The notes under the pieces: model-generated
Databases searched by the model: none
The model's input: the letters and a program-made list of their open reading frames with translations, nothing else
Told to the model about the DNA's origin: nothing
Shown here: in pieces, positions 25,818-57,225 of the stretch
Position numbering within the stretch: position 1 is the first letter of the stretch
Layout: every line of letters starts with the position of its first letter
Assembly (NCBI GenBank): GCA_964016885.1
Contig: OZ024740.1
Coordinates: 290,036,001 to 290,100,000, forward strand
Length of the DNA stretch: 64,000 nucleotides
Direction: 5' to 3'
From: Eledone cirrhosa
Lineage: Eukaryota
Made by a program: the position numbers and the translations under genes

Positions 25818-25944
25818 AAAGTTTTATTTAAAATGTTGGGTTACAACGAGTAAATATTTTATAACTGATATAAAAGCACTCAACAGATTTTGGAGTATTT
25901 TACGATATTAAACAAATGGAAATTACATTTATAAAACCATATTT

Positions 25945-26007
25945 ATTTCATTATATATATTTCAGGGATATCATATTAAAATATGGTATGCCTTCTTCAG
26001 ACAAAAT
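25945..26007 (-). ncRNA. Type I hammerhead (mirror copy)
   Basis: Reverse complement of 26475-26537. Confidence 0.8.
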
Positions 26008-26091
26008 ACAATATATAGACAGTTTTATAAATAAATTTGACATACCTTAGAGTTTACAACTTCCATTTAAAAAGTTGTTACGGTAGTAACA

Positions 26092-26400
26092 ACCGTAACT
26101 ACTGTAACTACCGTAACAACTGTTACTACCGTAACAACTGTAACTACCGTAACAACTGTAACAACCGTAACTACTGTAACTACCGTAACAACTGTAACTA
26201 CCGTAACAACTGTAACTACCGTAACTACTGTAACTACCGTAACAACTGTAACTACCGTAACAACTGTAACTACCGTAACAACTGTAACTACCGTAACAAC
26301 TGTAACTACCGTAACAACTGTAACTACCGTAACTACTGTAACTACCGTAACAACTGTAACTACCGTAACAACTATAACTACCGTAACAACTGTTACTACC
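26092..26400. repeat. 18-bp minisatellite (accgtaacaactgtaact) x ~17
   Basis: Contiguous units built of two related 9-mers. Confidence 0.95.
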
Positions 26401-26474
26401 GTAACAACTTTTTAAATGGAAGTTGTAAACTCTAAGGTATGTCAAATTTATTTATAAAACTGTCTATATATTGT

Positions 26475-26537
26475 ATTTTGTCTGAAGAAGGCATACCATA
26501 TTTTAATATGATATCCCTGAAATATATATAATGAAAT
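26475..26537 (+). ncRNA. Type I hammerhead ribozyme
   Basis: attttgt CTGAAGA aggc ataccatat ttta atatgatat ccct GAAA tatata TA atgaaat; 7-bp stem I with GU pairs, palindromic stem III, AUA triplet. Confidence 0.8.
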
Positions 26538-26578
26538 AAATATGGTTTTATAAATGTAATTTCCATTTGTTTAATATC

Positions 26579-26653
<75 letters not shown>

Positions 26654-26921: not shown

Positions 26922-27190
26922 AAAACAATGAAATAAAAAATCAACTCATTAGAAATATACTTCACTGCTTTACGATCGTTTCTAGGTGATGATCGTAACT
27001 ATACCTCGTTATCGATCTATGTAAGGTTAGTTACAAACTCTATGTATATATATATATTTATATAAATGGAATAAATGAAACGGAATTTCATTTCTCACTC
27101 TTAGTACGGCTGTTACTTAAATATAATATGTATACGTACATACATATATGTATACAGACGTACAGTAGTATGTATATATATACATACATG

Positions 27191-27257
<67 letters not shown>

Positions 27258-27375
27258 GTATGGGTTTACCGAACATTTATTATAATGTTCGGTTTGTTTG
27301 TAAACAAACAGCCCGAATTAAGCCGTACAGTGTTTAGCAACCATCGTTGCCCTTTTGTTCAACACTGACAAAGGA

Positions 27376-27418
27376 AAGATGTACTAGTTTCAAGCCTATT
27401 AGCTATCGTCAGCATCGT
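27376..27418 (-). ncRNA. Minimal type I hammerhead (mirror copy)
   Basis: RC: acgatg CTGACGA tagc taata ggctt GAAAC TA GTA catctt. Confidence 0.85.
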
Positions 27419-27880
27419 ATACCTTCCTGCAAGATGATTGAACGTCTGAAAGTATATACTTTCCTGATTCATATTAATGGCTGAGCAGCCTAATTTTCAT
27501 ATCGAGTGAGTTAGTCGGCCGGGCGCACCGGAAACGATAAATGGAAAAAATGAAACGAAATTTCATTTCTAACTCTTAGTATGGCTGTTACTTAAATATA
27601 AGTATGTATACGTACATATATATATGTGTGCATGTATATATATATATATACATACTACTGTACGTCTGTATACATATATGTATGTACGTATACATACTTA
27701 TATTTAAGTAACAGCCGTACAAAGAGTGAGAAATGAAATTTCGTTTCATTTTTTCCATTTATCGTTTCCGGAGCGCCCGGCCGACTAACTCACTCGATAT
27801 GCAAATTAGGCTGCTCAGCCGTTAATATGCATAAGGAAAGTATATACTTTCAGACGTTCAATCATCTGGCAGGAAGGTAT

Positions 27881-27923
27881 ACGATGCTGACGATAGCTAT
27901 TAAGCTTGAAACTAGTACATCGT
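27881..27923 (+). ncRNA. Minimal type I hammerhead ribozyme
   Basis: acgatg CTGACGA tagc tattaa gctt GAAAC TA GTA catcgt; perfect 6-bp stem I, palindromic ACTAGT stem III, predicted cut after 27917. Confidence 0.9.
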
Positions 27924-28306
27924 TCCTTTGTCAGTGTTGAACAAAAGGGCAACGTTGGTTGCTAGACACTGTGCGGCGTAATTCGGGCTGTTTGTTTACA
28001 AACAAACCGAACATTATAATAAATGTTCGGTAAACCCATACGTACATATAATATATATGTGCATGTATGTATATATATACATACTACTGTACGTGTGTAT
28101 ACATATATGTATGCCAACGAAATCACTAAGACAACAATATTACTAAACCGACTACCGTCGGTTTAGGATGTACTTATACACACACACACACATATATATT
28201 TATATATATATATAACGAAGGAAATGTTGTAAGGAACCAGGTGGACCATAACGCACCAAAGTACTCAATACTTAGGGTAGTAGAGTGGGTAATAGGAACA
28301 AGTGAG

Positions 28307-28400
28307 ACCCCGACGGCTGAGCTCAAGCCGTTTCGACGGCTAATTCTGTACTGAATGAAAATTTATTCTGGTATTTAAATAGCCGAGCTTATCAAGGGGT
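28307..28400 (-). ncRNA. Hammerhead, U3-A8 variant (mirror copy)
   Basis: Reverse complement of 28889-28982. Confidence 0.75.
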
Positions 28401-28888
28401 AATTCCATATATGGTCAAAGAGATAATCACCAGGATTGGTCACATCACAAGTTAGTAGTAAATCTGTGATGGCAAATTGGTGGGGGAAGGGGTAGCTAAA
28501 CCTGTTTATTTATTTATTTATGTATTTCTTTAGCCTAGCATTAGCGAGAGACTTAAGTCTTAGCAACCAGACTTTGCTTATTTATTTATTTATTTATTTA
28601 TTTTTATTTTATTTTTTCTCTCTCAGTACCTTTTATAGTTTTACCCTTCATTGTTCTACTTACCGTTTCGACCTCCTCCCCCTCCCCCTCCCCAGTATCC
28701 TCTTTGACCTCACGCCCAGCTGTAGCTGGCACTACCAACGCATGAATGGGTCTACTCCACCCCTCTCCCTTTTTCTCCTACCGGCAGGTTTAGCTACCCC
28801 TTCCCCCACCAATTTGCCATCACAGATTTACTACTAACTTGTGATGTGACCAATCCTGGTGATTATCTCTTTGACCATATATGGAATT

Positions 28889-28982
28889 ACCCCTTGATAA
28901 GCTCGGCTATTTAAATACCAGAATAAATTTTCATTCAGTACAGAATTAGCCGTCGAAACGGCTTGAGCTCAGCCGTCGGGGT
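28889..28982 (+). ncRNA. Type I hammerhead with U3-A8 core variant and long stem II
   Basis: acccc TTGATAA gctcggcta...tagccgtc GAAA CGGCT tgagctc AGCC GTC ggggt; GUC triplet, predicted cut after 28977. Confidence 0.75.
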
Positions 28983-29006
28983 CTCACTTGTTCCTATATA
29001 TATATT

Positions 29007-29235: not shown

Positions 29236-29607
29236 AGTATATTTATTGAAAGAAACAAAGTATTAATACAAAAAGTCTGTTTGGGAACAGGTTTTGAATT
29301 GACCAATAGAAAAGAGTTAGTGGTCAACTTGATAGAATAACAGTAGTAGAACTTTATGCTAGGAGTGGAGGAATGTAAATTTATGCTTTGAATGACAAGA
29401 ATACAATGGGGAAGAGAAAGGGGTTAAAATGAGGTCAAGTCAATGAGATAGTGAAGGAATCTCCCCCCCCCCCAAAAAAAAATTGATGTTATTAAAGAAT
29501 GTTGTTAAAAGCGAAGGGAAAGAATTTTTTTGTGGGATGAGAGTGTTAGTGAGAAATACTACTCCTGTTTAAATTTCTAGGAACCTAGATACATAAAAAG
29601 AAATTAA

Positions 29608-29811
29608 ATTTTCCAAAAGTGATCAGATTAGAGCAAAAATCACGAGCACTCTATCTCAAAATTATTTTTGAAAAGCATAAGAAATGCGCAACCGGTAAAA
29701 ACTTAAAACTAAAACCGAATACTAACTAATACTTATTACTAATTTATACTTATTTCTAATTAAACTATTTTTCACTGGGAAAAATTTGTCAGCATTTTCT
29801 TTTCCTCTTTA

Positions 29812-29816
<5 letters not shown>
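29608..29816 (+). repeat. Dispersed repeat, same family as 50867-51075
   Basis: Near-identical ~200 bp (gatcagattagagc...cttttcc..ttactaatat), ending in (TA)n. Confidence 0.85.
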
Positions 29817-29851
<35 letters not shown>

Positions 29852-50251: not shown

Positions 50252-52030
<1,779 letters not shown>

Positions 52031-57174: not shown

Positions 57175-57225
57175 AGCTTCCTGATGATTTCTCACGAAAG
57201 AAACAGTTCTAGTCCTGTAGAAGCT
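57175..57225 (+). ncRNA. Canonical type I hammerhead at the end of a non-coding element with a ~170-bp-period direct repeat (56823-57111)
   Basis: agcttc CTGATGA tttc tcac gaaa GAAA CAG ttctagtc CTGTA gaagct; all three stems pair; predicted cut after 57219. Confidence 0.92.

What the first reader, a model, noticed from the sequence alone, without database searches (positions are those of the whole stretch)
27065..28175. Viroid-like ~430-nt retrozyme unit, circularly permuted and present in both polarities
Seen: both orientations run for more than one unit and start at different points of the unit. The unit is a chain of hairpins (accgaacatt..aatgttcggt, tgtttg..caaaca, gcaac..gttgc, gaaagtatatactttc, ggctg..cagcc, ccgg..ccgg, aatgaaa..tttcatt) with one textbook minimal hammerhead (27881-27923) and no ORF; a 10-bp hairpin ctaaaccgac/gtcggtttag sits in the tail. 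Established: animal retrozymes are tandem non-coding units with minimal type I hammerheads that yield circular RNAs. Inference: an undescribed retrozyme family producing a branched ~430-nt circRNA.
Basis: partly seen in the sequence, partly recalled or inferred. Interest (0 to 1): 0.75.

Follow-up and report, generated by a model that had tools for sequence, protein, structure and literature searches.

The report
Hammerhead retrozyme pasted by Penelope enzymes
This is one older copy of a non-coding 430-base repeat whose hammerhead (self-cutting RNA) motif occurs over 27,000 times in this animal genome; it sits in AT microsatellites as two back-to-back arms, and its youngest relatives repeat a single unit many times on both arms, so it is likely copied from a small RNA circle by Penelope-type retrotransposon enzymes.

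Summary
The repeat is real: two back-to-back arms of a 430-nt non-coding unit, each about 1.2 units long with one hammerhead. It folds far better than shuffles (z -6 to -10). Three corrections: the 'tail' hairpin belongs to an unrelated repeat; the hammerhead is the canonical animal type I, not the minimal one; and the two polarities come from DNA insertion, not viroid-like replication. This locus cannot release a circle, having one hammerhead per strand. The family is huge (27,535 exact motif matches) and carries Penelope-like-element (PLE) marks: (AT)n targets, variable 5' ends, inverted arms, and two fixed 3' ends 59 nt apart, nearly always one per arm. Young relatives are arrays of up to about 20 units per arm that share locus-specific variants and unit length across both arms, which points to rolling-circle reverse transcription of one monomer. 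Older arrays of 127 and 149 units expanded after insertion. No coding parent was found and no RNA data were available, so cleavage and circles are unproven. Verdict: new family of a known class (animal non-LTR retrozymes). The scan found this two-arm pattern before in other units and genomes.

The parts
27045..27063 (.). (AT)n microsatellite, left remnant of the target site
   Evidence: Sequence; 44 of 47 long ends in the family are followed by AT-rich DNA
27062..27617 (-). Minus arm, about 1.2 units (u194 to u275 of the next unit), ending at the long 3' end; its internal (AT)n (27169-27253) is expanded
27376..27418 (-). Type I hammerhead of the minus arm, core intact, one stem I mismatch; predicted cut between 27382 and 27381
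27608..27617 (.). 10-nt microhomology shared by the 5' ends of both arms; the two unit sites involved (about u121-128 and u197-204) pair with each other in the predicted RNA fold
   Evidence: sequence; fold
27608..28113 (+). Plus arm, about 1.2 units (u121 to u196 of the next unit), interrupted near its short 3' end
27684..28113 (+). One complete 430-nt unit: chain of hairpins, AT-rich segment, no ORF
27704..27762 (+). 59-nt 'tail' between the two fixed 3' ends of the family (short end u216 = 27703, long end u275 = 27762); inferred reverse-transcription start sites
   Evidence: recurrent (AT)n loose end at 27762 in 52 and 68 contigs of runs X1 and X3, one sample
27881..27923 (+). Canonical metazoan type I hammerhead (CUGACGA core, 4-bp helix II over a U-U pair, palindromic helix III, GUA site); predicted cut 27917/27918; helix I extends into a long bulged stem
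   Evidence: definition from PMC4209133
28114..28169 (+). NOT part of the element: 56-nt 3' fragment of an unrelated repeat, carrying the 10-bp hairpin
28170..28178 (+). Probable remnant of the short 3' end of the plus arm (about u207-216), followed by (CA)n/(AT)n; inferred
   Evidence: Sequence comparison with 27684-27703

Best explanation
The locus is one older insertion of a high-copy, non-coding hammerhead repeat (an animal non-LTR retrozyme) that sits in an (AT)n microsatellite as two back-to-back arms ending at two fixed sites, and it was likely pasted by a Penelope-like retrotransposon enzyme copying a unit-length RNA circle from both nicked DNA strands. Steps. (1) Shown: loci with two or more hammerheads in tandem exist in hundreds. 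(2) Inferred from known retrozymes: their transcripts self-cleave, probably as dimers, and are ligated to a 420-500 nt circle. (3) Inferred from the ends and from PLE biochemistry: a PLE protein nicks both strands of (AT)n; one strand starts reverse transcription at u275, the other at u216. (4) Shown in young subfamilies: both arms repeat one and the same monomer; inferred: the enzyme ran round a circle. (5) Shown: the arms join at short microhomologies; inferred: the cDNA ends anneal. (6) Partly shown: afterwards most arms shrink to about one unit and a few expand into satellites. This copy has one hammerhead per strand and is probably a dead end.
For: Copy number: 27,535 exact matches to a 19-nt hammerhead motif, control 0; 340 exact motif pairs one unit apart, control 0. 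Ends: of 108 arms in 66 loci, 47 end at u275, 43 at u216, 18 elsewhere; of 34 back-to-back pairs 20 are short/long (one a duplicate), 1 short/short, 0 long/long, 13 have an unclassified end; no convergent pairs (19 of 20, p = 2e-5). In 54 loci taken in genome order, 0 of 30 pairs are long/long, 5.7 expected, P = 0.002. In the youngest subfamily 15 of 22 pairs are short/long, 1 long/long, 6 unclassified. Coding PLE families of the same genome also have two 3' ends at (AT)n, with short/long inverted pairs (read by eye). PLE tail, inverted copies and (TA)n bias are described in PMC8557442 (passages); both-strand cleavage and two internal start sites in PMC11167929 (main text). Monomer bottleneck: subfamily Y2 (about 83% to the window unit), 150 monomers at 26 of 30 loci: 0.05 substitutions between arms of a locus (295 pairs) against 2.32 between loci (10,424 pairs); unit length equal between arms in 63% against 3%; in 18 loci with 3 or more monomers 19 variants are fixed in every unit (6 private), 2 partial, 29 single (1 shared). 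Subfamily Y1 (about 88%): 160 monomers at 22 loci, 29 private singletons, 0 shared, locus-specific lengths. The cleavage junction is exact in 403 of 408 young units. Structure is under selection: helix I pair u397/u3 pairs in 123 of 129 copies as A-U, U-G or G-U; u242/u303 is A-U in 100 and G-C in 23; 10 of 80 consensus pairs have a both-side change.
Against: No RNA, cleavage or circle was observed. In the predicted monomer fold the catalytic core is mispaired, and a two-copy cofold did not give the active double hammerhead. Eight of nine Xenopus retrozyme dimers did not cleave in vitro (10.64898/2026.07.22.740005). For the anole PLE, uncut RNA was the main substrate and start sites did not differ between strands (PMC11167929). 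The bottleneck test rests on sister subfamilies; in the window's own subfamily arms are short and the signal is weaker (rare variants shared 0.34-0.68 per 100 nt within loci against 0.07 between, nested insertions included). Gene conversion or assembly polishing could homogenise arrays. Three variants of L339 that looked private among 10 loci were no longer private in the non-AT part with 26 loci. L243 alternates two unit types (15 shared, 0 single differences) and L253/4 has a 5-unit period, which a monomer circle alone does not explain. The driving PLE family was not identified.
Confidence: 0.75

Rival explanations
1. Same PLE-mobilised element, but the template is a linear uncut multimer from existing arrays; arrays grow and homogenise by unequal crossing-over and conversion, and circles play no part in mobility.
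For: Arrays of 127 and 149 units with 93-94% internal identity clearly expanded after insertion; 5-unit and 2-unit periods exist. Hammerhead cleavage is dispensable for the anole PLE in vitro (PMC11167929). Li et al. propose local amplification.
Against: Young insertions have locus-specific variants and lengths fixed on both arms, and 1 of 58 single-unit variants is shared between loci (0 of 29 for Y1, 1 of 29 for Y2). Arms reach 16-20 units at near 100% identity. The hammerhead is conserved across five subfamilies.
Confidence: 0.15
2. The template is a linear monomer cut at both hammerheads, and the enzyme jumps repeatedly from its 5' end to a 3' end.
For: It would also give a monomer bottleneck. 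A few arms start within 12 nt of the cut site (L004, L018, L107, L160).
Against: 403 of 408 junctions are exact with no added bases. 5' ends are spread round the unit without a visible pile-up at the cut site (judged by eye).
Confidence: 0.05
3. The unit is only the pseudo-LTR of a coding PLE and the locus is a truncated, inverted PLE insertion.
For: All insertion marks are PLE marks; short inverted hammerhead pairs are described for truncated PLEs (PMC4209133); retrozymes are related to pLTRs. Only 50 of 150 scored GIY-YIG places, from 10,596 candidates, were examined.
Against: The unit runs head-to-tail with no ORF between copies. It was found in 3 of 50 PLE loci, each time as a separate insertion (L094 read, L077 and L093 mapped). 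None of 54 loci taken in genome order joins an arm to a PLE ORF. Origin from a pLTR remains likely; being merely one does not.
Confidence: 0.04
4. Endogenised viroid-like replicon that replicates RNA-to-RNA through both polarities.
For: Viroid size, branched fold in both strands (z -7.0 and -6.5).
Against: Hammerhead in one polarity only; the inverted arm obeys the PLE end rule; 0 motif matches in metagenome contigs; the fold is a chain of local hairpins, which fold equally on both strands.
Confidence: 0.02

Closest known systems
Animal non-LTR retrozymes (Cervera and de la Pena 2020, PMC7229834, parts 2-4 of 6 read; Li, Clavereau and Pollet 2026, 10.64898/2026.07.22.740005, parts 1-3 of 5 read)
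   Same: Non-coding 420-500 nt unit, one type I hammerhead per unit, tandem dimers to long arrays, low GC, highly self-paired fold, coexistence with PLEs. The U-U pair at the base of helix II matches axolotl HHR_Amex2 as described.
   Different: Sequence has no Rfam match and no earlier scan match; I could not compare it with the published retrozyme sequences. Insertions are two-armed with fixed ends in (AT)n, which the sections I read do not describe. Cleavage and circles are untested here.
Endonuclease-positive Penelope-like elements, Neptune/Nematis type (Craig et al. 2021, PMC8557442, passages; Frangieh et al. 2024, PMC11167929, main text)
   Same: 5' truncation, partial tandems, inverted 5' arm, tail on one end, two internal start sites, (TA)n targets, hammerhead.
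   Different: No RT or GIY-YIG ORF; tail 59 nt rather than 30-40; arms are multimers of the whole unit; the two start sites split one per arm in the genome, whereas no strand difference was seen in vitro.
Newt and axolotl satellite 2 hammerhead repeats (as described in PMC7229834)
   Same: Weak palindromic helix III expected to need a dimer; very high copy number; long arrays.
   Different: Here most copies are dispersed short insertions with defined ends.
Hammerhead viroids (Avsunviroidae; recalled, and PMC8781251 and PMC9608096 seen as search listings only)
   Same: Size and branched fold.
   Different: Ribozyme in one polarity only; DNA copies with retrotransposition marks.

Membership tests
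Animal non-LTR retrozyme | Tandem units of a few hundred nt, each with a type I hammerhead | tested here: met
   Family. This locus has one hammerhead per strand, so it fails the 'active' criterion of Li et al. (two consecutive hammerheads).
Animal non-LTR retrozyme | No protein coding, no LTR | tested here: met
   (ORF from the conserved ATG is 9-76 aa in 121 copies, mostly 18 or 30; frames broken between subfamilies)
Animal non-LTR retrozyme | Highly self-paired unit | tested here: met
   Circular fold z -6.7 to -10.2 for 5 of 5 natural monomers; covariation modest
Animal non-LTR retrozyme | Hammerhead self-cleavage | not testable with these tools
   Core intact and conserved; activity needs an assay
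Animal non-LTR retrozyme | Expressed as unit-length circular RNA | not testable with these tools
   No RNA holder listed; genomic monomer bottleneck is indirect support
Animal non-LTR retrozyme | Coexists with autonomous PLEs | tested here: met
   9 of 15 ORFs tested hit both RVT_1 and GIY-YIG, most RT scores below the Pfam cut-off; 7 sequence groups
Autonomous PLE or its pLTR | RT plus GIY-YIG ORF joined to the repeat | tested here: not met
   0 of 54 loci in genome order; 3 of 50 PLE loci hold the unit only as a separate insertion
PLE-type insertion (works like) | 5' truncation, inverted arm, tail at one end, microsatellite target | tested here: met
Minimal hammerhead of PLEs (min-HHR) | No helix III or loop 3; long helix II, short helix I | tested here: not met
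   Helix I 6 bp, helix II 4 bp, palindromic helix III present against PMC4209133
Viroid-like replicon | Ribozymes in both polarities | tested here: not met
Viroid-like replicon | RNA-to-RNA replication | not testable with these tools
   No RNA data

The most novel reading that the evidence does not exclude
This family is a still-active RNA circle parasitising a PLE enzyme: one monomeric circle is reverse-transcribed round and round from both nicked strands of an (AT)n site, each strand using a different start site, so new insertions are born as two-armed concatemers of up to about 25 units that later collapse or grow into 50-60 kb satellites. That would be genomic proof of the rolling-circle step proposed for animal retrozymes, and a strand rule for the PLE tail.
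Probability: 0.6. Interest if true: 0.68.

Novelty: new member of a known kind. Interest (0 to 1): 0.5.

Why it matters
How animal retrozymes spread is open: one paper proposes rolling-circle reverse transcription of circles (PMC7229834, Discussion), another local amplification after insertion. This family shows both in one genome and separates them by age. It also gives a small, defined RNA with two mapped start sites for the in vitro PLE system, and a rule (one start site per arm) that the published assay did not see. At more than 27,000 hammerheads it is also a sizeable source of satellite DNA and of inverted repeats that could form double-stranded RNA. The class itself is known, and this particular copy is probably inert.

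Tried and rejected
RNA evidence: no RNA holder listed; the contigs laid are of unrecorded kind and say nothing on expression. Pieces of the unit lie in low-depth contigs of runs labelled organisms B and C; not interpreted. Rfam: 0 matches; ARAGORN: 0; metagenome contigs: 0 motif matches. Search for a coding parent: PF26215 is not in the library; GIY-YIG route and 54-locus sample found none; no recurrent branch into foreign sequence among the loose ends shown, though 419 rows were not shown. A 99-aa ORF in one array is not conserved: rejected. Direct joins of PLE 3' fragments to arms in L229 and L234 were considered as co-insertions naming the driver; two different PLE families are involved and L234 pairs long with long, so sequential insertion is as likely. 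The lower mutation rate in the hammerhead core (0.8% against 3.7%) is not used, because many loci were found with that motif; the same bias partly affects the 0 of 11 core changes between subfamilies. End calls were crude and were redone, where Y2 ends stayed mostly unclassifiable because of long (AT)n. Searches gave no mapping (bad BLAST settings); output was cut in the middle and redone. Loci left out: duplicates of the same place (L010, L103, L111, L119, L120, L122, L123, L127, L131), the two arrays (L128, L129) and one arm at a locus edge. Literature: no description of this family or of the one-site-per-arm rule for retrozymes turned up in searches; the library lacks most subscription papers, the supplement of PMC7229834 could not be read and preprint supplements are closed, so related repeats may be listed there or in repeat databases.

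Full report
Observation. The region holds two arms of a 430-nt unit joined back to back. With u1 at window 27918, just after the predicted cut, the minus arm runs from u194 through one full unit to u275 (27617 to 27062) and abuts (AT)n. The plus arm runs from u121 through one unit to u196 (27608 to 28113). The arms share 10 nt at the junction, and the two unit sites involved pair with each other in the predicted fold. Each arm has one hammerhead. The unit folds far better than shuffles, as a line (z -8.3), as a circle (z -6.7 to -10.2 for five natural monomers) and without its AT-rich part (z -6.1); six control stretches give +1.3 to -2.0. There is no ORF of note and no Rfam or tRNA match.

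Corrections. The hairpin in the 'tail' (28114-28169) is the 3' end of another repeat. It has 370 candidates, the unit is absent from 11 of 11 such loci, and longer copies have a different body. The nine bases after it look like the rest of the arm's short end (inference). The hammerhead fits the canonical metazoan type I as defined in PMC4209133, not the minimal type. It exists in one polarity of the unit only, so the two polarities are not a viroid signature. One hammerhead per strand also means this locus cannot release a monomer by double cleavage.

The family. A 19-nt hammerhead motif matches 27,535 times in the 3.0-Gb genome, control 0; 340 motif pairs lie one unit apart. Five subfamilies of 7-57 sampled copies differ at 23% of positions outside the hammerhead; inside it only a helix I pair, position 7 and a loop base differ (partly biased by motif-based sampling). 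The helix I pair stays paired in 123 of 129 copies through A-U, U-G and G-U, and 10 of 80 consensus pairs show both-side changes. Arrays exist at all sizes: 4, 12 and about 45 units, and 127 and at least 149 units on C28.

Insertion marks. In 66 loci, 90 of 108 arms end at one of two sites 59 nt apart, u216 or u275, mostly followed by (AT)n; 5' ends are scattered. Back-to-back pairs use one site each: 20 short/long (one duplicated), 1 short/short, 0 long/long, 13 unclassified. In 54 loci taken in genome order 0 of 30 pairs are long/long against 5.7 expected. In the youngest subfamily the count is 15 short/long, 1 long/long, 6 unclassified. Coding PLEs are abundant (10,596 GIY-YIG candidates; 9 of 15 ORFs hit RT and GIY-YIG), 5 of 6 examined have the CxxC linker of Neptune/Nematis type, and four families also show two 3' ends with short/long inverted pairs. 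These are the PLE features described in PMC8557442, and the tail equals the stretch between two internal start sites in PMC11167929. No locus joined the unit to a PLE ORF; the driver family is unknown.

Template. Two very young subfamilies, about 88% (Y1) and 83% (Y2) identical to the window unit, form two-armed arrays with arms of up to about 20 units. In Y1, 160 monomers at 22 loci carry 29 private single-unit changes and none shared; unit length (422, 424 or 426) is largely locus-specific on both arms. This sample was chosen for near-identity to the query, which works against finding private fixed changes (1 found). In Y2, arms of one locus differ by 0.05 substitutions and loci by 2.32; 19 variants are fixed in all units of a locus, 6 of them private among 26 loci, against 2 partial. 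The cut-site junction is exact in 403 of 408 units. Each insertion therefore passed through one monomer sequence. Rolling-circle reverse transcription of a circle is the simplest cause (inference), as proposed in PMC7229834. Conversion, assembly polishing, or homogeneous linear sources are not excluded, and L243 and L253/4 show 2- and 5-unit periods. In the window's own subfamily the within-locus signal is present but weak.

Later fate. In the 54-locus sample, copies with closer relatives have more tandem hammerheads (Spearman 0.53, p = 3e-5; the reference set is enriched for young copies), consistent with collapse of arms over time. The two giant arrays keep insertion-type ends but have 93-94% internal identity, so they expanded after insertion; the window's subfamily is only about 91% like them and did not come from them.

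Comparison and verdict. It is a member of the animal non-LTR retrozymes on the sequence criteria; cleavage and circular RNA could not be tested. It works like a PLE insertion but is not a coding PLE, and it is not viroid-like. Earlier notes of this scan describe the same two-arm pattern for other units; none matched this sequence. Novelty: new member of a known kind. Interest 0.5, for the testable mechanism rather than for this copy.

Noticed in passing
window 28215-28997: Another two-armed repeat in the same (AT)n, arms of 213 nt 100% identical; hits in 62 of 259 stored sequences; my hammerhead scan found no motif in it.
   Followed up: partly
window 25901-26581: Two-armed insertion with 191-nt identical arms, a hammerhead-like motif on each arm (26476-26536 +, 26006-25946 -) and an 18-bp tandem repeat between; hits in 19 of 259 stored sequences.
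   Followed up: partly
window 57175-57225 (+) and 52482-52432 (-): Type I hammerheads of another family with a longer helix III; also seen in L040, L092, L101.
   Followed up: no
window 29590-29825 and 50659-51077: 3' ends of a coding PLE family; the second is an inverted short/long pair.
   Followed up: partly
window 28114-28169; L032-L052: Unidentified repeat ending in a 10-bp hairpin at (AT)n. At least 10 loci hold a solo 56-nt piece with the same 5' boundary (query-biased); longer copies carry a 270-nt end and GC-rich tandem repeats.
   Followed up: partly
G000:C28:45.626-45.689 Mb and C28:36.030-36.083 Mb: Satellite-sized arrays of 149 and 127 units that keep insertion-type ends; the first begins with a short inverted arm.
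   Followed up: yes
L229 2584-2900 and L234 2654-2900: 3' fragments of two coding PLE families joined back to back with an arm of this repeat with no (AT)n spacer; co-insertion or sequential insertion.
   Followed up: partly
L243 2627-4773: Four units alternating between two types, 15 shared and 0 single differences: a dimeric template or a very recent two-unit duplication.
   Followed up: no
L146, L021, L002, L005: Other hammerhead families beside this one in the same microsatellites, one with 310-nt spacing.
   Followed up: no
L320-L321 (G000:C1:253.18 Mb): An assembly gap of N lies inside a young array, so some array lengths are lower bounds.
   Followed up: no
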